The notes beneath the pieces are model-generated. The model searched no databases. It saw only the letters and a list, made by a program, of their open reading frames with translations, and was not told the origin of the DNA. From Verrucomicrobiaceae bacterium TMED86 (GTDB taxonomy: Bacteria; Verrucomicrobiota; Verrucomicrobiia; Verrucomicrobiales; Akkermansiaceae): a stretch of 42,822 nt of DNA. Both the position numbers and the translations under genes were made by a program. Location of the stretch: the NCBI GenBank assembly GCA_002172625.1, contig NHEN01000002.1, positions 1-42,822 on the forward strand. The letters run 5' to 3'. This document shows, in pieces, positions 7,570-42,822 of this stretch (its first letter is position 1; the number at the start of each line of letters is the position of its first letter).

Positions 7570-7914
7570 ATGAAAACTACAATCACAATGATCGCTGCTT
7601 TTGCAGCTTTCACAGCCGGAGCCGCTGCCGCTCCAGTCGTGACAACCACAACCACCCAAGCGGAAGTTGTGGCTGCTGATGAAAAGACGACCGTTTTGGC
7701 CGTCACAGGATTACGGTGAGCATCCGGATGTTCTAGAAAAGTGCAGGCTGCACTTAAAGGAGTAAAGGGAGTCACCAAAGTTAAAGTCGGCAAAAAGACC
7801 GGCACTAATGCTGACACCACCGTTACCGCTGGGAAAGGCGTCAAAGTTGCCGACATGGTCGCCGCCCTTAAAAAGGTTGGTTACGGTGCCACTGAAAAGA
7901 AGGCAGATTCGTAA
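7570..7914 (+). CDS. secreted HMA (heavy-metal-associated, MerP/CopZ-like) domain protein with an in-frame TGA at 7717-7719; candidate selenoprotein, otherwise a pseudogene
   Basis: Hand translation gives MKTTITMIAAFAAFTAGAAAAPVVTTTTTQAEVVAADEKTTVLAVTGLR-[TGA]-ASGCSRKVQAALKGVKGVTKVKVGKKTGTNADTTVTAGKGVKVADMVAALKKVGYGATEKKADS-TAA. Both halves share one frame and together give a signal peptide plus a complete beta-alpha-beta-beta-alpha-beta HMA layout. The TGA occupies the first Cys position of the metal-binding loop. Each half is under 60 aa, so the gene is missing from the ORF track. Two hairpins follow the TAA. Confidence 0.55.
7732..7761 (+). promoter_or_regulatory. SECIS-like stem-loop downstream of the in-frame TGA
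   Basis: AAGUGCA-GGC-UGCACUU forms a perfect 7-bp stem (7739-7745 with 7749-7755) with apical loop GGC at 7746-7748. A possible 3-bp lower stem pairs 7732-7734 with 7759-7761. There are 26 nt between the UGA and the apical loop. The apex resembles my memory of the E. coli fdhF SECIS apex (GCAGGUCUGC). Confidence 0.4.
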
Positions 7915-7962
7915 TCTGATTCAGTTCGATAAGAACTGAACCCTGATATTTTTCAAATTTAG

Positions 7963-8000
7963 AAACCCACGTTGTCACATGACAGCGTGGGTTTTTATTT
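7963..8000 (+). terminator. rho-independent terminator after the HMA gene
   Basis: The stem pairs AAACCCACGTTGTC (7963-7976) with GACAGCGTGGGTTT (7981-7994), with one G-U pair and loop ACAT. It is followed by a T-rich run (ending TTTTTATTT at 8000). A weaker AT-rich hairpin (TTCAGTTC/GAACTGAA) lies at 7920-7940. Confidence 0.8.
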
Positions 8001-8271
8001 AACCTTTCCGTAATATTTTCTAACTGGGAATTCCTGACAAACAGAGGGGAAATCGACGATCCACCCTTGGTGCGGAATTACATTTTATGAAATTCGCCGC
8101 CACAGACATGAAACTGGATGGCTGCAATGATGATGCCCGAGCCTCCCCGCAATGGACCCGCGAGCAATTGAGCCATGACCAAAGGAAATGGTTCCTCTCA
8201 CCGCCATGATGGGAAATTTTGTCATCGCCCACGCCAATTTGATCGATCCGGAGATTTCCTCAATTCACTCT

Positions 8272-8310
8272 CCAAAGAAAAAGCCCCGGGAGTTTGCACT
8301 CACCGGGGCT
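8272..8310 (-). terminator. rho-independent terminator after rpoC
   Basis: On the minus strand AGCCCCGG-(13 nt loop)-CCGGGGCT is followed by TTTTTCTTTGG, beginning 22 nt after the rpoC TAA. Confidence 0.8.
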
Positions 8311-8332
8311 TTGTGATTCTTAGAGGCTGATC

Positions 8333-32646: not shown

Positions 32647-32732
32647 TCAAATGAACACCTATCGAAAGTGCAAGAAAATCAATTCAGTTGCATGGTTTTG
32701 GAGAAATGGCACGTTCACGTCCGCCAAAACAA

Positions 32733-33698
32733 ATGAAAACAATATCACTCATTACAGCCGTCTCGCTTCTTGCCTCATCCTTCAGCTTTGCCGGCGGAGA
32801 AGGCTGGACCAGCGACTTCGCAGCAGCGAAGGCCCAAGCCGCCAAAGAGGGCAAAGACCTCCTCATCGACTTCACCGGCTCCGACTGGTGCGGCTGGTGC
32901 ATCAAACTCAACGAGGAAGTCTTCCAACACGATCCCTTCAAGAAAGGCGTCGCTGATCAATTCGTCCTCGTGGAACTCGATTACCCACGGGACAAATCGA
33001 AGTTAGACGAAAAAACGATTAAGCAAAATGATGAGCTTAAGAGCACTTACGAACCACGAGGATTCCCGACCATCCTCCTCACCGACGCCAGCGGAAAACC
33101 ATACGCTCAAACCGGGTATCAAAAAGGAGGTCCCGAGGCCTACGTGAAGCACCTCGACGAGCTTCGCGCTAAAAAAACAGACCTCATGAAAAGCTTCGAA
33201 GAAGCCGACAAGCTTGAAGGCGTCGCCAAAGCCAAAGCTCTTGTCGAGGCTCTTGGCACACTCCAACCCCAGCATCACAAACATTACTCCGATAAAATTT
33301 CGGCCATCGAAAAGGCCGATCCAAAAGACGAATCCGGTTTTGTTAAGGAGCAAAAATTTCGTGCTGCAAAATCAGATCTCGAAAAGCAGCTGAGCACCGC
33401 CATGCGGGCCCAAAAACTTGACGATGCGATAAAAGCTGTCGATAGCTTCATCGCCAAGCACAATCCCGAAGGCGCCGAGAAGCAGGAAATCCTCGCGAAC
33501 AAAGTCAACATTTACATGTCCCAGCAGAAATTGGACGAAGCCGAAAAAGCCCTCGACGAGATCATCGCAGTCGATGCGAAATCCCAGATGGGAACTTCCG
33601 CAGCTGGCTTTAAACCCAGGTTAGCAGAAATGAAAAAGAAGGCTGCGGAAAAGAATACCGAAGAAGCTCCTGACAAGCCTGCGGAGAAATCCGAATAG
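32733..33698 (+). CDS. secreted thioredoxin-fold protein (CGWC active site) with a helical C-terminal extension
   Basis: Tracked ORF 32688..33698. The likely start is MKTISLITAVSLLASSFSFA (a signal peptide) at 32733. It has the motif LLIDFTGSDWCGWCIKLNEEVF and cis-Pro region GFPTILL. The C-terminal region of roughly 170 aa is Lys/Glu/Ala-rich and looks helical. Confidence 0.7.
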   Translation: MKTISLITAVSLLASSFSFAGGEGWTSDFAAAKAQAAKEGKDLLIDFTGSDWCGWCIKLNEEVFQHDPFKKGVADQFVLVELDYPRDKSKLDEKTIKQNDELKSTYEPRGFPTILLTDASGKPYAQTGYQKGGPEAYVKHLDELRAKKTDLMKSFEEADKLEGVAKAKALVEALGTLQPQHHKHYSDKISAIEKADPKDESGFVKEQKFRAAKSDLEKQLSTAMRAQKLDDAIKAVDSFIAKHNPEGAEKQEILANKVNIYMSQQKLDEAEKALDEIIAVDAKSQMGTSAAGFKPRLAEMKKKAAEKNTEEAPDKPAEKSE

Positions 33699-33720
33699 CT
33701 TTAACAATTACAACTCCATC

Positions 33721-33760
33721 AAAAAGCGCGCAGGGACAAGCAAGCCCCGCGCGTTTTTTT
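33721..33760. terminator. bidirectional rho-independent terminator between convergent genes
   Basis: AAAAA-GCGCGCAGGG-(9 nt loop)-CCCCGCGCG-TTTTTTT. The GC-rich stem has one mismatch. An A-tract on the left and a T-tract on the right let it work on both strands. Confidence 0.8.
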
Positions 33761-33768
33761 ATTTCGTC

Positions 33769-35151
33769 CTACTCGGTTTCAACTTCATAGACAAAGCGGA
33801 AATAACGCGCCCCTTGTGTCGCAGGCATTGATCTCGTTACCATCCCGGCGTTATTCGCCGTCACCGGAGTTCCCTCGCTCCAATTCACTAAATCTTCCGA
33901 GATTTTCAAAAGATACCTCGTCCGGGGCACTCCCGGTGTGCTCACCGTCACCCTGGGACTTCCATTCACCATCTGTACTCCCACTTCGGTTTCATCGGCA
34001 GTCAAAAGAATCACCGACAATCCACCTTCTTCCCCGAAGGGCGACGACCACTTTTCGTCGGTATACACCGAAGTCCCAGTCAAGGTTCCCAAAAACGTCA
34101 CCAAGGCCTCTTTCTGAGCCTGACTCAGATTCAAACGCTGGCCTCCCGTGGGCTGAGTCACACCCGGACGGGGCGGCGGGCCTGCCAAACGACGATCCAA
34201 TCCCGTGGTCACCGCGGGAATAGCGTTGTAGTGATTCACGACATCCAACAATGAGCTCAGCGAAGCATTGTGCATGAATCCCCCATGCGGAGTGCCGTCG
34301 GCCGACACCACATCGCGCAAACTCGGAGACCGGGTGACAGTGAAGTCCAGCCCTCCTGCCAAAGTCCCCGTCACTCCGTTATGTCCGCTATTCGGATCGA
34401 TATCGAATTCCGGCGCTTGGTGACAGGCATTGCACCCCGCCCCGCCACCCGGAGCATTCGGTGGGCTCATGAAAATGCGCTTCCCGTCGTTTTCTTCAGC
34501 AGTGAAATTTTGAAAAGGAGCGTTGGGATTATTCACTTGGGTAAGGCCTTGGTCGTACTTGCTGTCGAATGATTGAATGCTACGCACGAATTGCGCCAAG
34601 GCTCCCTGGACCCGCGCCTCGGTGATCTCGCCATCTCCATAGAGTCCGGTGAAGAGCACCCGATAAAGCTCGATGGCCTCCAGCCGATCCACCAAATATG
34701 AAAAATCCGGATCCCCTTCCGTTCCGCTGAATCCCATCTCAACATGATCCTGAATCGGCATCGTCACCTGGTCTTCCAGTGTCTCCACTCTCTCATCCCA
34801 GAAGAAATTACGCTCACGTCCGAAGCGCGCATTGATCAGACGCATCGAATGCCGCCCCGTGGCCCCGGCCACTCCCTGACTTGCGATATCAGGATCACCA
34901 AAGCCGTGCTCCTGCTGATGACATGACGAGCAAGATACCGTTCCATCCACCGAAAGTCTCGGGTCATAAAAAAGCACTCGTCCCAGAGTCGCGCCAATAT
35001 TCGAAATGCGATTATCTCCCGGCGTATTGTCCTTTTGAATATAGGCCGGCCGGTCCTGGTTGGCATATTCATGAAGTAAAGTCAGATCGAGAACCCCGTT
35101 CTGGGCCATCGCTGAGCTGATCATTGTGTAGAGGATTGTTTGAGCCTTCAT
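33769..35151 (-). CDS. di-haem cytochrome c peroxidase / MauG-family protein with an extra C-terminal domain
   Basis: Tracked ORF 33769..35169. The probable start is MKAQTILYTMISSAMA at 35151. It has two CxxCH motifs (CSSCHQQEHGF and CNACHQAPEF) at the spacing typical of the CCP_MauG family. A tail of roughly 90 aa at the C-terminus is unassigned. Confidence 0.75.
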   Translation of the reverse strand: MKAQTILYTMISSAMAQNGVLDLTLLHEYANQDRPAYIQKDNTPGDNRISNIGATLGRVLFYDPRLSVDGTVSCSSCHQQEHGFGDPDIASQGVAGATGRHSMRLINARFGRERNFFWDERVETLEDQVTMPIQDHVEMGFSGTEGDPDFSYLVDRLEAIELYRVLFTGLYGDGEITEARVQGALAQFVRSIQSFDSKYDQGLTQVNNPNAPFQNFTAEENDGKRIFMSPPNAPGGGAGCNACHQAPEFDIDPNSGHNGVTGTLAGGLDFTVTRSPSLRDVVSADGTPHGGFMHNASLSSLLDVVNHYNAIPAVTTGLDRRLAGPPPRPGVTQPTGGQRLNLSQAQKEALVTFLGTLTGTSVYTDEKWSSPFGEEGGLSVILLTADETEVGVQMVNGSPRVTVSTPGVPRTRYLLKISEDLVNWSEGTPVTANNAGMVTRSMPATQGARYFRFVYEVETE

Positions 35152-35225
35152 GTGGCACATCATCCACATGAAAGATTAAGGAATGATGACGCGAGGCCCC
35201 CAAAAGTGTTAAGAGTTCGTAAACT

Positions 35226-37526
35226 CTAAAAAACAAAGTCGTCTTCTCCGAGAATCTGCACCTCGGTCTCCAGCTCCACGCCGCGCTCCGCTCTCGCGGT
35301 CGCTTTAATCTGATCAATCAGGGCCAGAACATCCGCAGCCTTGGCCTGTCCCCGGTTTACGATGAAATTGCCGTGCTCCGGTGACACTTCGGCTTTTCCG
35401 ACTCCCGATTCCTTGAGGCCCAACTCATCAATGAGCTGCCCTGCACCCATGACTTCGGGATTTTTAAAGGTGCATCCCGCACTCGCTGCTTTTGGCTGCG
35501 TGGCATTGCGATGATGACGCGATTCCTCGAGCAATTCCTGAATCCGTTCTCCGTTTGATTCCTCACCCTGGAAGGTTGCCGAGAGTGCGTAGTTCCGGCG
35601 AAACTCGGGCACGCTGCGATATCTCGCATCGATCTCCTCCCGGCTTCGCGTTCTCACTTCGCCGTCCTCGTCGAAAAACGTCGCGTCGATCACCTGATCA
35701 AAAGTCTCAATTCCCATCGCGCCCGCATTCATCCGAAGCCCTCCGCCAACATTTCCGGGAATTCCTTCCATCCACTCGAATCCGCCAATGCCATTTTCAC
35801 GGGCCACGCTGGCAACTTTCTTAAATCGCGCTCCCGCTCCAGCCCGAATGACATTTCCTGCCGCCACCACTTCGCCAAAGGAACCTCCTTTGGGATGAAT
35901 CACCGCGCCACGAATCCCTCCATCACGAACCAAGAGATTGGATCCCCGTCCTACCACGCGGACCGGAATCCCCCGGGCCCGACAAAAGTTCACCGCATTG
36001 GCAAAGCTCTCGAAGTCACTCGGCTCGATCCAAAACTGAGCCGGACCCCCTACGCGAATCGTGGTGTGTTTCGACATCGGCTCATAGAGCTTCACATTCT
36101 CGACCCCGGCCTCTCCTTTGATCTCCTCAATCACCTTGAGATCTTTCACCAGCTTGTTTCCCGCCTCGTGGACATTCCCAGCCCCCAGAGTGAGAAATAG
36201 ATCGTCCTCTGCCAAAAGATTCCCGATGTGATGATGCGCCGTTTCGAGGTCTGGCAGATAAACCGCTTTCGTATCCCCATGAGCATGCACCGCATCCACA
36301 ATGGTCTGCCCGCTCACACCCTCAATAGGATCTTCACTCGCCGCATAAACCCGCGTCACAAAAACCATATCCGCAGCTTGCAGAGCTTTTCCAAATTCAT
36401 CGGCCAACTTCTGCGTCCGGCTATACCGATGCGGTTGAAAAAGAACCACCACACGCCCCCGGTCAAAAGTCCGCGCCGTCTGCAGTGTCGCCGCGACTTC
36501 CGTCGGATGATGCCCATAGTCATCCACCACCCGAAATCGTTTCGAAAGATACTTCGTCTCAAAACGCCGTTTTGCGCCCGCGAAGGAACTCAGCGCCCGG
36601 GCCGTTTTCTGAAAATCAACCCCACACAAATCTCCAATCGCCAGCGCACCCAGAGCATTCAAGACATTGTGCAATCCGGGAATCCCCAACTGAACGCGCC
36701 CCATTTCCTTCCCACGGAAACTCACCGTAAAACTCACCGTCCCGATCTGCTCTAAAATATCCGTGGCGGTCCAATCGGCGTCTTTCCAGCCGTATGAAAT
36801 CGAGCCCGCTCGCGGTCTGCACAAACTCGTCGCCTCCTCGCAATCCGCACAATAAACCGACGCCCCGCTTGTCTGATCCAGAAGTGTATTGAAGACCTCC
36901 CGAATCTGCTCAATCCCACGCGTGTAAAAATCCAGGTGCTCTTCCTCCACATTGAGCACGATGACATGCTTCGGCTTGTAGAGCGCCAGCGTTCCGTCCG
37001 ACTCATCACCTTCCGCGACCAAAAACTCCCCTTCCTCGTTCCACTCGGCATTCGACCCCAACACCGGAATCTCCGCACCCACATAATGACACGGCGCGAG
37101 TTCACCCTTCCGCAAAATATGCGCAATCATCGACGAAGTCGTCGTCTTGCCATGCGTCCCGGAAACAATCACGCCCGACTTGGTATGCAAAATCGCCGCG
37201 AGGCATTCCGCCCGTCGAAAAGTCGAAGTTCCGGCCTCCGTCGCCGCCGCCAAAGCTGGATTCTCTGGACGAATCGCAGACGAATAGATCACCGCGTCCA
37301 CGTCCTTCACCGCTTCCGCAGAATGCGGAGTCGAAAACTCCAATCCGCTGCTCCGTAAACGCTCGGTCTCTCCCGAAGTCACCCGGTCAGATCCGCTCAC
37401 CCGATGCCCCATCTCCAACAAAAGACGAGCCAGCCCGCTCATCCCGGATCCGGCCACTCCAATCAAATGCACCCGCAAAGGTTCATCGCGATTGAGAAGC
37501 TTTTCGCTGAATTCCTCGATGGTCAT
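35226..37526 (-). CDS. murC-murB: fused UDP-N-acetylmuramate--L-alanine ligase (MurC, N-terminal) and UDP-N-acetylenolpyruvoylglucosamine reductase (MurB, C-terminal)
   Basis: 766 aa in a single uninterrupted frame. The first ~470 residues are MurC (HLIGVAGSGMSGLARLLLEMGHRVSGSD, GTHGKTTTSSM, DDYGHHPTE). The remainder is MurB (MSKHTTIRVGGPAQFW, VVGRGSNLLVRDGGIRG, GAGCTFKNP). The junction lies near 36120. Confidence 0.9.
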   Translation of the reverse strand: MTIEEFSEKLLNRDEPLRVHLIGVAGSGMSGLARLLLEMGHRVSGSDRVTSGETERLRSSGLEFSTPHSAEAVKDVDAVIYSSAIRPENPALAAATEAGTSTFRRAECLAAILHTKSGVIVSGTHGKTTTSSMIAHILRKGELAPCHYVGAEIPVLGSNAEWNEEGEFLVAEGDESDGTLALYKPKHVIVLNVEEEHLDFYTRGIEQIREVFNTLLDQTSGASVYCADCEEATSLCRPRAGSISYGWKDADWTATDILEQIGTVSFTVSFRGKEMGRVQLGIPGLHNVLNALGALAIGDLCGVDFQKTARALSSFAGAKRRFETKYLSKRFRVVDDYGHHPTEVAATLQTARTFDRGRVVVLFQPHRYSRTQKLADEFGKALQAADMVFVTRVYAASEDPIEGVSGQTIVDAVHAHGDTKAVYLPDLETAHHHIGNLLAEDDLFLTLGAGNVHEAGNKLVKDLKVIEEIKGEAGVENVKLYEPMSKHTTIRVGGPAQFWIEPSDFESFANAVNFCRARGIPVRVVGRGSNLLVRDGGIRGAVIHPKGGSFGEVVAAGNVIRAGAGARFKKVASVARENGIGGFEWMEGIPGNVGGGLRMNAGAMGIETFDQVIDATFFDEDGEVRTRSREEIDARYRSVPEFRRNYALSATFQGEESNGERIQELLEESRHHRNATQPKAASAGCTFKNPEVMGAGQLIDELGLKESGVGKAEVSPEHGNFIVNRGQAKAADVLALIDQIKATARAERGVELETEVQILGEDDFVF

Positions 37527-40956: not shown

Positions 40957-42822
40957 ATGAAAAAATCTTATCTCCTGGCCCTCGTCCCTGTCATCGCCAT
41001 TCCCGTCCTGGGACAACTCTCAAAGGACGGCTCCCAACGAAAAGCCCCACCCAAAGGCTGGACCAAGTTCGAATGGGCTCAAAAGAAAGATATCCTCCTC
41101 AAATATTTCGCTCCGACCACCGAAGAGCTCGCCGCCATCGACAAGGCTCTTCCCACCAAACTTTCGGTCGAACCTAAAAACCCCCGCCGCATTCTCCTCT
41201 TCTACAAATGCGACTACCCGCACAGCTCTATCGCCACCGGTATCGCGGCTTTTGAAAAAATGGGCCAGGCCACCAAAGCCTTCGCAGTCGACAGCACCGA
41301 CGACCCCGAAAAGTTCTCCGCGCAAAACCTCGCGCAATACGACGCCATCCTTCTCAACAACTCCGTTGGCTACGAAGCCTTCCTCAACGAGACCCAACGT
41401 CAGGCTCTTCTCGATTTCGTTAAATCCGGCAAAGGTCTTATCGGCATCCACGCCGCTGCCGATGCCTGCAAGGAGTGGAAACCCGGGGCCGATCTCATGG
41501 GCGGCGTCTTCGAATGCCACCCCTGGACCTCCAAAGGAACTTGGGCTCTCAAAGTAGAATCTCCTCTTCATCCGCTCAACACGGCCTTCGACGAAACGGG
41601 CGACTTCATCAACGACGAGATTTATCACTACCGCAACGGTTCCTTTTCCACCGACAGATCCCGCGTCCTCCTCAGTCTCGACATGGAACAACCGCGCAAT
41701 TTTTTAGGGAGCGGACTCCAACAAAAAAATGCCGGGGTCATTGCAAAAGAAAACGACTATCCCGTCGCCTGGCTCCACCAACATGGCAAAGGCCGCGTCT
41801 TCTATTCCAACCTCGGCCACAACCATTCGACCTACTGGAATCCCAAAGTCCTGCAACACTATCTCGACGGCATCCAATACGCCCTAGGCGATCTCGAAGC
41901 CGACGCCACGCCTTCCGGGAAACTTTCCCTCATCACCATCGCCCCCGCTCCGGCCAAGCGCATCGTCTTCCTCGCCGGCCGACCATCCCATAAATCTGGC
42001 GATCACGAATTCCGCGCCGGCTGCCTTCTTCTCGCCAAAGCTCTCAACACCCAGAGCGACCTCCCCGTGAAGGCCGAGGTCATTTCCGGCTGGCCCAAAG
42101 ACGACACGGTGCTCGATGATGCCGCCGCCCTTGTCATCTACTGCGATTCCGACTCCGTTCACCGCGAGCAATACAAACGCCTCATGGAACTCCACGAAGA
42201 AGGCTCCGGCATTTTCTTCATGCACTACGGCGTGCATCCCAAGAAGCCCGAGGACGGCAAAAATTATTACCTCCCCACCGTCGGTGGCTTCATGGAATCC
42301 GGCTTCTCGGTAAATCCAAAATGGGCTGCTGATCTCAATGCAACCTCCGATCATCCTGTCCGACGCGGTTGCGAAGATCCCGTTCCCGTTTACGACGAAT
42401 GGTATTACTCCCTCCGCTTCGCAAAAAACGTGATCCCACTCGTCACAGCCATCCCCACCAAAGACAACATGGTCGCGGGATCCAACCTATGGAACGAGAA
42501 CGCCACCATGAACTATGGCAAACCTCAAAACCTCGTCTGGGGATTTGAGAACTTCGACGGCACCCGCGGCGGCGGCTTCACCGGTGGGCACTACCACCGC
42601 AACTGGGTCATCGACGGTTACCGCAAGATGATCCTCAACACCATCGTCTGGATTGCCGGCATGGATGTTCCTGAAGGCGGCGTGAAGTCCGAAAAAATCA
42701 CCGAGGAACAAATCAACGCCAATCTCGATCAAAAGGAAAACATGACGCGCATCAAGCTCCCCTTGAAAACCGCTAAGGACTACCGCCTCGCCGAACTCCG
42801 CTCCCGCGCCGAGAGAGAGAAA
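40957..42822 (+). CDS. secreted protein with two tandem ThuA-like domains; the 3' end lies beyond the window
   Basis: Hand translation is open from the ATG at 40957 to the window end (622 codons). It is absent from the ORF track because there is no stop. It has a signal peptide (MKKSYLLALVPVIAIPVLG). Domain 1 shows ILLFYKCDYPHSSIATG, GLIGIHAAADA, ECHPW and VFYSNLGHN. Domain 2 shows RIVFLAGRPSHKSGDHEF, VIYCDSD and GGFTGGHYHRNW. An in-frame ATG at 40927 is an alternative start. Confidence 0.75.
   Translation, partial: MKKSYLLALVPVIAIPVLGQLSKDGSQRKAPPKGWTKFEWAQKKDILLKYFAPTTEELAAIDKALPTKLSVEPKNPRRILLFYKCDYPHSSIATGIAAFEKMGQATKAFAVDSTDDPEKFSAQNLAQYDAILLNNSVGYEAFLNETQRQALLDFVKSGKGLIGIHAAADACKEWKPGADLMGGVFECHPWTSKGTWALKVESPLHPLNTAFDETGDFINDEIYHYRNGSFSTDRSRVLLSLDMEQPRNFLGSGLQQKNAGVIAKENDYPVAWLHQHGKGRVFYSNLGHNHSTYWNPKVLQHYLDGIQYALGDLEADATPSGKLSLITIAPAPAKRIVFLAGRPSHKSGDHEFRAGCLLLAKALNTQSDLPVKAEVISGWPKDDTVLDDAAALVIYCDSDSVHREQYKRLMELHEEGSGIFFMHYGVHPKKPEDGKNYYLPTVGGFMESGFSVNPKWAADLNATSDHPVRRGCEDPVPVYDEWYYSLRFAKNVIPLVTAIPTKDNMVAGSNLWNENATMNYGKPQNLVWGFENFDGTRGGGFTGGHYHRNWVIDGYRKMILNTIVWIAGMDVPEGGVKSEKITEEQINANLDQKENMTRIKLPLKTAKDYRLAELRSRAEREK

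What the first reader, a model, noticed from the sequence alone, without database searches (positions are those of the whole stretch)
7570..7914. HMA metal-binding gene with an in-frame TGA at the first metal-ligand Cys position: candidate selenoprotein
This gene is hidden from the ORF track. One frame reads from the ATG at 7570 to the TAA at 7912, with a single TGA at 7717-7719. Read through, it encodes a signal peptide plus a complete ferredoxin-like HMA domain: ...TTVLAVTGLR-U-ASGCSRKVQAALKGVKGV..VKVADMVAALKKVGY... The TGA falls in the loop after beta-1, where HMA proteins carry the first Cys of the G-M-x-C-x-x-C motif. The partner Cys follows at U-A-S-G-C, one residue longer than canonical CxxC. 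I recall a GMxCxxGC variant in some HMA proteins but cannot verify it. Sec replacing a redox or metal-ligand Cys is the established pattern for bacterial selenoproteins. The sequence after the TGA stays well-formed HMA sequence, with no frameshifts and a clean terminator, which argues against old decay. A recent TGY-to-TGA nonsense mutation would look the same at this one codon. I do not know whether Sec-containing HMA/MerP-like proteins are already catalogued.
Basis: partly seen in the sequence, partly recalled or inferred. Interest (0 to 1): 0.75.

Follow-up and report, generated by a model that had tools for sequence, protein, structure and literature searches.

The report
Unannotated selenocysteine metal-binding protein gene
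This small gene of a marine Akkermansiaceae bacterium almost certainly encodes an exported metal-binding (HMA) protein in which the first metal-ligand cysteine is replaced by selenocysteine, and public databases split it into two 'hypothetical protein' fragments.

Summary
ATG 7570 to TAA 7914 is one frame with a single TGA at 7717-7719. It encodes a signal peptide plus an HMA domain, and the TGA sits at the first Cys of the GMxCxxC motif.

The TGA is not a recent nonsense mutation or an assembly error. It is kept in all 14 distinct orthologues recovered, from marine Akkermansiaceae MAGs, metagenome contigs and cultured Rubritalea profundi. Amino-acid identity to the window ranges from about 60 to 98%.

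Codons directly after the TGA vary synonymously, so this stretch is translated in frame. dN/dS downstream of the TGA is 0.2-0.34 with dS at or above 1.

A 7-bp hairpin (7739-7755) has its loop 26 nt after the TGA. It is frozen at synonymous sites, shows one compensatory pair change, and fits the published bacterial SECIS model. Its apex resembles the E. coli fdhF SECIS.

TGA is an ordinary stop codon elsewhere in these genomes. No Cys orthologue exists among 1.84 billion representative proteins. More distant HMA domains with the same C-x-x-x-C spacing do exist.

Sec-containing HMA proteins are already catalogued (UxxU family, Cu-ATPases). This U-x-x-x-C exported family matches no curated model.

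The main gap is that selA/B/C/D could not be checked in these genomes. The only support is that Rubritalea marina is published as Sec-utilizing.

The parts
7570..7914 (+). Complete selenoprotein CDS. It has 114 codons including Sec, ATG start and TAA stop. Gene callers split it into 7570..7719 and 7741..7914.
   Evidence: All 14 distinct sequences (the window plus 13 orthologues) are co-linear in one frame. dN/dS is 0.03-0.34 upstream of the TGA where dS could be estimated, and 0.20-0.34 downstream of it.
7570..7629 (+). Predicted Sec-type signal peptide: MKTT n-region, hydrophobic ITMIAAFAAFTAGA core, Ala-rich A-x-A cleavage region. The boundary is approximate.
   Evidence: Read from the sequence. 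MKT[KT]ITMIAA and the A-x-A-A-P region are conserved in most orthologues. There is no twin-arginine motif and no lipobox Cys. No signal-peptide predictor was available, so this is an inference.
7693..7884 (+). HMA (heavy-metal-associated, ferredoxin-like) domain, residues 42-105.
   Evidence: Pfam PF00403 over residues 42-105. PDB HMA domain alignments. AF2 beta-alpha-beta-beta-alpha-beta topology. MerP 1osd gives TM-score 0.70 normalised to the target.
7717..7719 (+). In-frame TGA, inferred selenocysteine codon (residue 50). It takes the place of Cys1 of the metal-binding motif.
   Evidence: TGA in 12 of 12 aligned distinct orthologues plus L003 and L006. The codon before it varies (CGG, AAA, GTC) and the codon after it uses GCA, GCC, GCG, GCT or GGA. 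It aligns with Cys of GMTCxxC.
7729..7731 (+). TGT, Cys54, the partner ligand. The motif is U-A-S-G-C, that is U-x-x-x-C.
   Evidence: The Cys is invariant and is encoded TGT in 6 and TGC in 6 orthologues, a purely synonymous split.
7739..7755 (+). Candidate bacterial SECIS hairpin AAGUGCA-GGC-UGCACUU. The 7-bp stem is 7739-7745 paired with 7749-7755, and the loop is 7746-7748.
   Evidence: Hairpin energy is -7.4 kcal/mol, z = -2.95. It is invariant across orthologues apart from the loop G to U change in R. profundi and a compensatory A-U to U-A change in L010. Synonymous variation occurs in 1 of 4 hairpin codons against 29 of 32 elsewhere, p = 0.010. It fits the bSECIS model.
7960..8003 (+). 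Intrinsic terminator: a 17-bp stem-loop followed by UUUUUAUUU, 46 nt after the TAA.
   Evidence: the 96-nt region folds at -37.4 kcal/mol, z = -8.44, and 0 of 200 shuffles fold as well.

Best explanation
The region is one gene for a small exported HMA-domain protein whose UGA at 7717-7719 is decoded as selenocysteine.

Mechanism. During translation, the hairpin at 7739-7755 is proposed to recruit SelB carrying Sec-tRNA(Sec) and GTP to the ribosome paused at the UGA. The hairpin has a 7-bp stem and a GGC loop, and its loop starts 26 nt after the UGA. Sec is inserted and translation continues to the TAA at 7912.

Product. After cleavage of the signal peptide, the mature protein of about 94 residues sits in the periplasm. 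It has a beta-alpha-beta-beta-alpha-beta fold. A selenolate (U50) and a thiolate (C54) lie in the beta1-alpha1 loop as a U-x-x-x-C site.

Proposed function. By analogy with MerP and CopZ, this site would bind a soft metal ion such as Cu(I) or Hg(II). The selenolate would give higher affinity and full ionisation at physiological pH.

Shown here: the frame, the conserved TGA, translation and purifying selection on both sides of it, the conserved hairpin, and the HMA homology.

Inferred: that the inserted residue is Sec rather than another amino acid, the export of the protein, and the metal-binding role and its metal specificity.
For: Conserved TGA.
- TGA is present at the same codon in all 14 distinct sequences: the window, L001, L002, L003 (same as L004), L005-L015.
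- These come from independent assemblies: ENA and JGI metagenomes, GenBank MAGs, and the Rubritalea profundi SAORIC-165 isolate genome. Identity to the window is 60-98%.
- In a search of 1.84 billion representative proteins, 7 clusters of N-terminal fragments all end at ...SGL[RKV]. Another 7 clusters of C-terminal fragments start at the GTG codon for Val58. No full-length Cys orthologue appears.

Translation through the TGA.
- The 7 codons between the TGA and the first possible restart codon show a coding-type pattern. Ala uses GCA/GCC/GCG/GCT, Gly uses GGA/GGT, and Cys uses TGT/TGC.
- Nei-Gojobori dN/dS downstream is 0.20-0.34 with dS of 1.0-1.5.

SECIS.
- The hairpin is invariant while flanking third codon positions vary. 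Synonymous variation occurs in 29 of 32 codons outside it and 1 of 4 inside it, Fisher p = 0.010.
- The one stem change is compensatory, A-U to U-A in L010.
- It meets the published bSECIS constraints: loop of 3-9 nt, stem of 4-16 bp, G[G|U] at the start of the loop, 16-37 nt spacing, and MFE at or below -7.5 kcal/mol (PMC13188914).
- Here the loop is GGC (GUC in R. profundi), the stem is 7 bp, and the spacing is 26 nt. MFE is -9.1 to -16.2 kcal/mol for the UGA plus 45 nt in 13 orthologues.
- Its apex, UGCA-GGC-UGCA, differs from the E. coli fdhF SECIS apex, UGCA-GGUC-UGCA, by one loop base. The fdhF sequence was verified.

Position.
- U aligns with Cys1 of GMTCxxC in solved HMA domains.
- The best-scoring Cys relatives carry the same spacing, for example GMSCAKNCARKVQAAL in P0009, compared with GLRUASGCSRKVQAAL here.

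Genetic code.
- TGA ends 21 of 99 long ORFs across the clade loci.
- No in-frame TGA occurs in dnaE, rpoB, rpoC or the other long genes of the window.

Lineage.
- Rubritalea marina DSM 17716 is listed among Sec-utilizing bacteria. That set was defined by the presence of SelD, SelA and SelB (PMC5029168 Table S2).
Against: - selA, selB, selC and selD were not examined in any genome that carries this gene. None lies in the window or in the 17 fetched loci.
- No Rfam SECIS family matches, even at E up to 10.
- The hairpin alone folds at -7.4 kcal/mol, marginally short of the -7.5 criterion.
- It lacks the bulged U of the E. coli element.
- Its base is 19 nt from the UGA, against 11 nt in fdhF.
- The hairpin overlaps the conserved peptide KVQAAL, so part of its conservation is protein-level.
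- There is only one compensatory event.
- The close family has no Cys orthologue, so the classical Sec/Cys pair is seen only with distant HMA relatives.
- The Pfam HMA score is below the gathering threshold.
- The structure model has only medium confidence. Its Foldseek hits are mostly generic alpha/beta sandwiches.
- Gene neighbourhoods are variable and contain no metal-homeostasis genes, so the metal and the physiological role are unsupported by context.
Confidence: 0.85

Rival explanations
1. Programmed stop-codon read-through without selenocysteine. The UGA is decoded by a near-cognate or suppressor tRNA (Trp, Cys, Arg or Gly). The conserved hairpin acts as a read-through stimulator or ribosome pause, giving a full-length HMA protein with an ordinary residue at position 50.
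For: All sequence evidence for translation through the TGA fits this equally well. The Sec machinery was not demonstrated in these genomes. No Rfam SECIS match was found.
Against: The recoded position is exactly the first metal-ligand Cys of the HMA motif. Sec substitution at such positions is the established pattern, and Sec-HMA families are already known. The hairpin satisfies the bSECIS model and resembles the fdhF apex. A Trp, Arg or Gly there would destroy the binding site. If Cys were wanted, a TGY codon would be simpler, yet it never occurs in 14 lineages. A congener is published as Sec-utilizing.
Confidence: 0.06
2. The TGA is a true stop. The locus encodes a 49-aa secreted peptide and, separately, a 57-aa C-terminal fragment started at GTG 7741. 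Alternatively it is a decaying pseudogene.
For: This is how gene callers and RefSeq/GenBank annotate it. R. profundi has WP_165788604.1 (49 aa) and PQJ27588.1 (60 aa). The window's 57-aa piece appears as MDG1070803.1 and other accessions.
Against: The 21 nt between the TGA and the GTG evolve as codons, with synonymous Ala, Gly and Cys changes, an invariant Cys, and no indels in 14 lineages. Neither half is a complete fold. The split removes beta1 and the metal site from the rest of the domain. Both halves stay in the same frame under purifying selection at dS at or above 1. A pseudogene would not keep this over such divergence.
Confidence: 0.03
3. Genetic-code reassignment (TGA = Trp or Gly, as in codes 4 and 25), or a sequencing or assembly error at this codon.
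For: Two database proteins (P0001, P0002) carry W at this position. TGA is a rare stop in the window itself, at 2-3 of 24 genes.
Against: The W is an artefact of gene callers applying code 4 to short contigs. The DNA reads TGA, and the locus 'does not translate to query' under code 11. TGA terminates 21 of 99 long ORFs across the clade. It is absent from more than 12,000 codons of conserved genes in the window. The same TGA occurs in more than 14 independent assemblies, which excludes error.
Confidence: 0.01

Closest known systems
NCBIfam NF041115 'UxxU_metal_bind' metal-binding (seleno)protein. This is the 'putative mercuric reductase' selenoprotein of the Olavius symbiont study, listed in PMC13188914.
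   Same: A small HMA-type metal-binding protein in which the ligand Cys positions of the CxxC motif are selenocysteine. It is the best NCBIfam hit of the window protein.
   Different: The score is 35 bits against a cutoff of 95. That family has two Sec in U-x-x-U. Here there is one Sec and one Cys, spaced U-x-x-x-C, plus an N-terminal signal peptide. The host lineage also differs, being marine Akkermansiaceae.
Cation-transporting (Cu) P-type ATPase selenoproteins with UxxC in the N-terminal HMA domain (TIGR01525 class; PMC2398784, PMC5029168, PMC13188914).
   Same: Sec replaces the first Cys of the HMA metal-binding motif. By sequence, the closest solved structures to the window protein are CopA N-terminal HMA domains.
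   Different: Those are domains of large membrane pumps with canonical U-x-x-C spacing. This is a free-standing exported protein of 114 aa with no ATPase nearby.
MerP, the periplasmic Hg(II)-binding protein (TIGR02052; PDB 1afi, 1osd).
   Same: It has the same architecture: a cleavable signal peptide plus a single HMA domain in the periplasm, with two ligands in the beta1-alpha1 loop. MerP 1osd is the best HMA structural match, with TM-score 0.70 normalised to the target.
   Different: TIGR02052 scores 18 bits against a cutoff of 92.55. No mer operon (merR, merT, merA) is adjacent in any of the loci. The motif is U-x-x-x-C rather than C-x-x-C.
CopZ/Atx1 copper chaperones.
   Same: A single-domain HMA protein of similar size. 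IMG names the C-terminal fragment 'copper chaperone CopZ'.
   Different: CopZ is cytoplasmic, lacks a signal peptide, and has MxCxxC. The CopZ NCBIfam models score 23-32 bits against cutoffs of 85-95. There is no copA or csoR neighbour.
E. coli fdhF SECIS element.
   Same: The apical stem-loop, G-C, C-G and A-U pairs closing a loop that begins GG, is nearly identical. fdhF has UGCA-GGUC-UGCA and this gene has UGCA-GGC-UGCA, or GUC in R. profundi.
   Different: The loop is one base shorter. There is no bulged U. The hairpin base lies 19 nt after the UGA rather than 11 nt.

Membership tests
Bacterial selenoprotein gene (SelB/SECIS-dependent UGA recoding) | In-frame UGA conserved among orthologues, with the coding signal continuing in the same frame downstream. 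| tested here: met
   TGA in all 14 distinct sequences. Synonymous variation starts at the very next codon. dN/dS downstream is 0.20-0.34.
Bacterial selenoprotein gene (SelB/SECIS-dependent UGA recoding) | bSECIS hairpin: 3-9 nt apical loop, 4-16 bp upper stem, G in the first two loop positions, 16-37 nt from the UGA to the loop, MFE at or below -7.5 kcal/mol (PMC13188914 Fig 2 legend). | tested here: met
   Loop GGC or GUC, 7-bp stem, 26 nt spacing. MFE is -7.4 for the hairpin alone and -9.1 to -16.2 for the UGA plus 45 nt. Synonymous sites are frozen, p = 0.010, and there is one compensatory change.
Bacterial selenoprotein gene (SelB/SECIS-dependent UGA recoding) | Cys-containing homologues align Cys with the UGA position (Sec/Cys pair). 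| tested here: met
   U aligns with Cys1 of GMTCxxC in CopA and other solved HMA domains. C-x-x-x-C HMA domains P0009, P0013, P0069 and P0077 are the nearest Cys relatives. No Cys form exists within the close family.
Bacterial selenoprotein gene (SelB/SECIS-dependent UGA recoding) | The genome encodes selA, selB, selD and tRNA-Sec. | not testable with these tools
   None lies in the window or in the fetched loci. The only evidence is indirect: Rubritalea marina is listed as Sec-utilizing, defined by SelD/SelA/SelB.
Bacterial selenoprotein gene (SelB/SECIS-dependent UGA recoding) | Selenium is physically incorporated at the UGA position (75Se labelling or MS). | not testable with these tools
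   Requires an experiment.
HMA domain (Pfam PF00403) | Profile match above the gathering threshold. | tested here: not met
   21.2 bits against 24.8, E = 3.8e-4, but covering profile positions 1-61 of 62. The shortfall is consistent with the one-residue insertion in the motif and a divergent sequence. All independent PDB and NCBIfam hits are HMA proteins.
HMA domain (Pfam PF00403) | beta-alpha-beta-beta-alpha-beta ferredoxin-like fold with two thiolate ligands in the beta1-alpha1 loop (GMxCxxC). | tested here: inconclusive
   AF2 gives the expected topology with U50/C54 in the loop and helix N-terminus, but at pLDDT 62. The motif is G-L-x-U-x-x-x-C, one residue longer and with Sec. MerP 1osd gives TM-score 0.70 normalised to the target, among many generic hits.
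NF041115 UxxU metal-binding selenoprotein | Score at or above 95 bits, and a U-x-x-U motif with two Sec. | tested here: not met
   35.1 bits. There is a single TGA, and the motif is U-x-x-x-C.
MerP (TIGR02052) | Equivalog score at or above 92.55 bits, and location in a mer operon. | tested here: not met
   18.4 bits. The neighbours are dnaE and rpoC, or GNAT, Exo_endo_phos and Iso_dh genes, with no mer genes.

The most novel reading that the evidence does not exclude
This would be a Sec-only, exported metallochaperone family restricted to marine Akkermansiaceae (Rubritalea and relatives). Its selenolate-thiolate U-x-x-x-C site would have no functional Cys equivalent. It might scavenge or detoxify a soft metal such as Hg(II), methylmercury or Cu(I) at seawater concentrations, or act as a redox-active selenenylsulfide. 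In that case it would be one of very few selenoproteins in these genomes, and so a main reason they retain the whole Sec-insertion machinery.
Probability: 0.2. Interest if true: 0.7.

Novelty: new member of a known kind. Interest (0 to 1): 0.6.

Why it matters
It adds a well-supported, previously unannotated family to the small group of selenoproteins in which Sec serves as a metal ligand rather than a redox catalyst. Its features are unusual for that group. It is exported to the periplasm, has U-x-x-x-C spacing, and has no Cys-containing orthologue in about 15 billion database proteins.

It exposes a systematic annotation error. RefSeq, GenBank and IMG list two 'hypothetical protein' or 'CopZ' fragments. 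Some metagenome gene callers write Trp at the Sec position because they applied genetic code 4.

A cultured carrier, Rubritalea profundi SAORIC-165, makes the prediction directly testable. The gene is common in marine metagenomes. The window's exact C-terminal fragment alone occurs on 47 contigs.

Because the close family is Sec-only, it bears on the open question of why some proteins insist on Sec when Cys is cheaper.

Tried and rejected
- Rfam at gathering threshold on the whole window, and at E up to 10 on 7690-7800, found no SECIS family. The only hits were two chance sRNA matches.
- tRNA-Sec was sought with ARAGORN in the window and in 9 loci. None was found.
- Pfam scans of 20 window ORFs found no selA, selB or selD and no metal-homeostasis gene.
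- A scan of the window for other TGA-split ORFs found only this gene as a credible candidate.
- I tried to extend the context beyond the window ends. The exact dnaE product is not on record. The deaminase gave a 35-kb contig with nothing new.
- The GOS 'MerP' selenoprotein of 2008 was considered as a prior description. Its published sequence, HHARTSAPAGTUCQSGVQ..., is unrelated.
- Term searches of BSepDB, deep-Sep, the 2022 and 2026 reviews and the whole paper library found no HMA, PF00403, UxxxC or Verrucomicrobia selenoprotein of this type.
- The lower stem pairing the UGA region with 7771-7775, from the single-sequence fold, is not conserved in orthologues and was dropped.
- A small UGA-proximal stem, UGAGC with GCUCA, appears in many but not all orthologues. 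It was left as unproven.
Orthologues P0001 and P0002 were used instead.
- Foldseek against the PDB was only weakly informative because the model is of medium confidence.
- Conserved synteny as a functional clue was rejected. The neighbourhoods differ between sub-clades.
Full report
**1. Observation**

One frame runs from ATG 7570 to TAA 7912-7914 and is interrupted only by TGA at 7717-7719. The mechanical ORF list shows only two short pieces, 7570..7719 (49 aa) and 7741..7914 (57 aa, GTG start).

Read through, the product is MKTTITMIAAFAAFTAGAAAAPVVTTTTTQAEVVAADEKTTVLAVTGLR-U-ASGCSRKVQAALKGVKGVTKVKVGKKTGTNADTTVTAGKGVKVADMVAALKKVGYGATEKKADS.

- With Cys at U, Pfam HMA matches residues 42-105 over essentially the whole profile. 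The score is E = 3.8e-4, or 21.2 bits, just under the 24.8 gathering score.
- All NCBIfam hits are HMA-type proteins. The best is NF041115, 'UxxU metal-binding (seleno)protein', at 35 bits against a cutoff of 95.
- phmmer against the PDB returns only HMA domains: CopA, ZntA, MerP, ATP7B and CopZ. It aligns 'VTGLRcASGCSRKVQAALKGVKGV' with 'VSGMTCAA-CAARIEKGLKRMPGV'. So U sits on Cys1 of GMTCxxC, and one extra residue precedes Cys2.
- An AlphaFold2 model of the 77%-identical orthologue P0001 has beta-alpha-beta-beta-alpha-beta topology, with residues 50 and 54 between beta1 and helix 1. Mean pLDDT is 62, and 70-82 in the core.
- Foldseek gives MerP 1osd at TM-score 0.70 normalised to the target, among many generic alpha/beta sandwiches.
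- A strong intrinsic terminator follows the TAA: a 17-bp stem at 7960-7997 plus a U-run, z = -8.4.

**2. The organism**

The window carries dnaE, rpoC, rpoB, ribosomal protein genes, nusG, tuf, a murC-murB fusion and PSD/PSCyt 'planctomycete' domain proteins.

The scan of species-representative genomes with the protein alignment returned eight loci. All are from Akkermansiaceae or Verrucomicrobiales MAGs, plus the cultured Rubritalea profundi SAORIC-165. One MAG, JAQWZU01, is 98% identical to the window.

**3. Is the TGA conserved?**

Yes, without exception.

- Database proteins P0003 and P0004 stop exactly at this codon.
- P0001 and P0002 are full length with 'W' at the position.
- Their DNA reads TGA, and the loci do not translate to those products under code 11. 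The W is therefore a gene-caller artefact of applying code 4 to short contigs.
- All eight genome loci and two further ENA contigs carry TGA at the same codon.
- In total there are 14 distinct sequences at 60-98% amino-acid identity to the window. None has TGT or TGC.
- The preceding codon varies (CGG, AAA, GTC). The following codon uses GCA, GCC, GCG, GCT or GGA.
- A HMMER search of 1.84 billion cluster representatives found 7 clusters of N-terminal fragments, all ending ...SGL[RKV]. It found 7 clusters of C-terminal fragments beginning at the GTG of Val58, and no full-length Cys orthologue.

Recent nonsense mutation and sequencing error are therefore excluded.

**4. Is the region after the TGA translated in the same frame?**

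- The 21 nt between the TGA and the first possible restart (GTG 7741) behave as codons. Gly is GGA in 4 and GGT in 8 sequences. Cys is TGT in 6 and TGC in 6. Ala uses all four codons, and there are no indels.
- Nei-Gojobori dN/dS for the 58 codons after the TGA is 0.20-0.34 at dS of 1.0-1.5. That is comparable to the upstream values of 0.03-0.34, where dS could be estimated.
- A two-gene or pseudogene model does not explain this. Neither half would be a complete fold either.

**5. Is TGA reassigned?**

No. TGA ends 21 of 99 long non-overlapping ORFs across the clade loci. In the window it ends murG and at least one other ORF. The long conserved genes of the window contain no in-frame TGA.

**6. 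The hairpin**

AAGUGCA-GGC-UGCACUU at 7739-7755 folds at -7.4 kcal/mol, z = -2.95.

- Across orthologues it is invariant apart from two changes. The loop is GUC in R. profundi. In L010 an AAA to AUA change is paired with a CUU to CUA change, converting the basal A-U pair to U-A. That is a compensatory change.
- Among codons whose amino acid is invariant, 29 of 32 outside the hairpin show synonymous variation. Only 1 of 4 inside it does, and that one is the compensated change. Fisher p = 0.010.
- The bacterial SECIS model is quoted in PMC13188914. It requires a 3-9 nt loop, a 4-16 bp upper stem, G in the first two loop positions (mostly G[G|U]), 16-37 nt between the UGA and the loop, and MFE at or below -7.5 kcal/mol.
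- This element has a 3-nt loop GGC or GUC, a 7-bp stem and 26 nt of spacing. MFE for the UGA plus 45 nt is -9.1 to -16.2 kcal/mol in 13 orthologues.
- Its apex differs from the E. coli fdhF SECIS by one loop base. fdhF has ...GUUGCA-GGUC-UGCACC, and I verified that text in 5419 of 5426 E. coli genomes, under the fdhF annotation.
- Differences from fdhF are the absence of a bulged U and a hairpin base 19 nt after the UGA rather than 11 nt.
- Rfam holds no matching family.

**7. Sec machinery**

This is the weak point.

- No selA, selB, selD or tRNA-Sec lies in the window or in any fetched locus.
- Indirect evidence is that Peng et al. 2016 defined Sec-utilizing bacteria by SelD, SelA and SelB (PMC5029168). 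Their Table S2 lists Rubritalea marina DSM 17716, with one known selenoprotein, and two marine Verrucomicrobia single-cell genomes.
- The trait therefore exists in the genus that includes a carrier of this gene. It was not shown for R. profundi or for the window's organism.

**8. Relation to what is known**

- Sec-containing HMA proteins are already catalogued. [quoted passage not shown]
- The GOS 'MerP' selenoprotein is a different, unrelated sequence.
- The present family matches no curated NCBIfam model above cutoff.
- It is not found by term searches in the 2022 and 2026 reviews, BSepDB, deep-Sep or the paper library.
- Sequence databases hold it only as fragments. R. profundi has WP_165788604.1 (49 aa, 'hypothetical protein') and PQJ27588.1 / A0A2S7TXW9 (60 aa). 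The window's 57-aa piece appears as MDG1070803.1 and others ('hypothetical protein [Akkermansiaceae bacterium]') and in IMG as 'copper chaperone CopZ'. It occurs on 47 contigs.
- Its distinctive features are a single Sec, U-x-x-x-C spacing, an N-terminal signal peptide, and the lack of any Cys orthologue.
- The C-x-x-x-C spacing is itself a genuine HMA variant. The best-scoring Cys relatives are multi-domain proteins with repeats such as GMSCAKNCARKVQAAL (P0009, P0013, P0021). Small exported proteins with GMTCPNGC (P0069) and GMTCSSGC (P0077) also carry it.

**9. Function**

- Gene neighbourhoods differ between sub-clades. The window, L005 and L006 have dnaE - gene - rpoC. L007-L010, L014 and L015 have GNAT or an Exo_endo_phos gene upstream, with isocitrate/isopropylmalate dehydrogenase downstream where the contig extends that far. 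R. profundi has Ig-domain proteins nearby.
- None of these contexts contains mer, cop or czc genes. Context therefore gives no clue.
- From architecture alone, the most likely role is a MerP-like periplasmic soft-metal binder, with Sec raising affinity and nucleophilicity. This is an inference.
- A redox role for a selenenylsulfide cannot be excluded.

**10. Verdict**

I put about 0.85 on genuine Sec decoding. The remainder goes mostly to Sec-independent read-through.

It is a new, unannotated member of an already known kind, Sec-for-Cys HMA metal-binding proteins. It has some unusual features and a cultured host in which it can be tested.

Noticed in passing
L016:186-725 (TGA at 333-335); protein P0025: A second, unrelated HMA protein from a high-GC JGI metagenome contig has two HMA domains. 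The first reads GMT-U-VGC, a TGA at Cys1 with canonical U-x-x-C spacing. The second reads GLECGGC. The database protein shows W at the TGA, again from a code-4 gene call. A GC-rich hairpin, GCCCG-CGUGA-CGGGC, follows 13 nt after the TGA. This is probably another Sec-HMA family.
   Followed up: partly
L001:535-879 and L002:487-837 (proteins P0001, P0002): Metagenome gene callers translated the in-frame TGA as Trp, using genetic code 4 on short contigs. The result is full-length database proteins with a spurious W at the Sec position. Such 'W' entries could be mined systematically as a signature of missed selenoproteins.
   Followed up: partly
window, stop codons of 24 long ORFs (for example 37523-37525 and 41020-41022 are TGA): Stop-codon usage in the window is skewed: TAG 13, TAA 9, TGA 2. 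Related Akkermansiaceae loci use TGA more often, 21 of 99 overall. The reason for the low TGA and high TAG usage was not examined.
   Followed up: partly
proteins P0009, P0013, P0021 (from the search): The best-scoring Cys relatives are long proteins with 3-6 tandem HMA domains that carry a C-x-x-x-C motif (GMSCAKNC, GMRCQKNC, GMMCQKSC) instead of CxxC. At least P0013 continues into what looks like a P-type ATPase membrane region. Their source organisms are unknown.
   Followed up: no
L005:10628-11353 versus window 7915-8332: The 98%-identical JGI contig has a 241-aa metallophosphoesterase gene inserted between the selenoprotein gene and rpoC. The window and MAG L006 lack it. This is a strain-level indel next to the gene.
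   Followed up: no
window 7717-7734 and the equivalent positions in orthologues: In many orthologues the UGA itself is paired in a small upstream stem, UGAGC with GCUCA, formed with the Cys-Ser codons. The pairing is not universal: it is absent or shifted in L009, L011, L014 and L015. Its significance is unclear.
   Followed up: partly
window 35226-37526 (-): A fused MurC-MurB protein of 766 aa, with Mur ligase domains followed by FAD_binding_4 and MurB_C. It overlaps murG by 4 nt.
   Followed up: no
window 32688-35169: A Thioredoxin_7/DsbH-like exported protein (336 aa, + strand) lies convergent with a di-haem cytochrome c peroxidase (466 aa, - strand). Both were checked for in-frame TGA and none was found.
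   Followed up: partly
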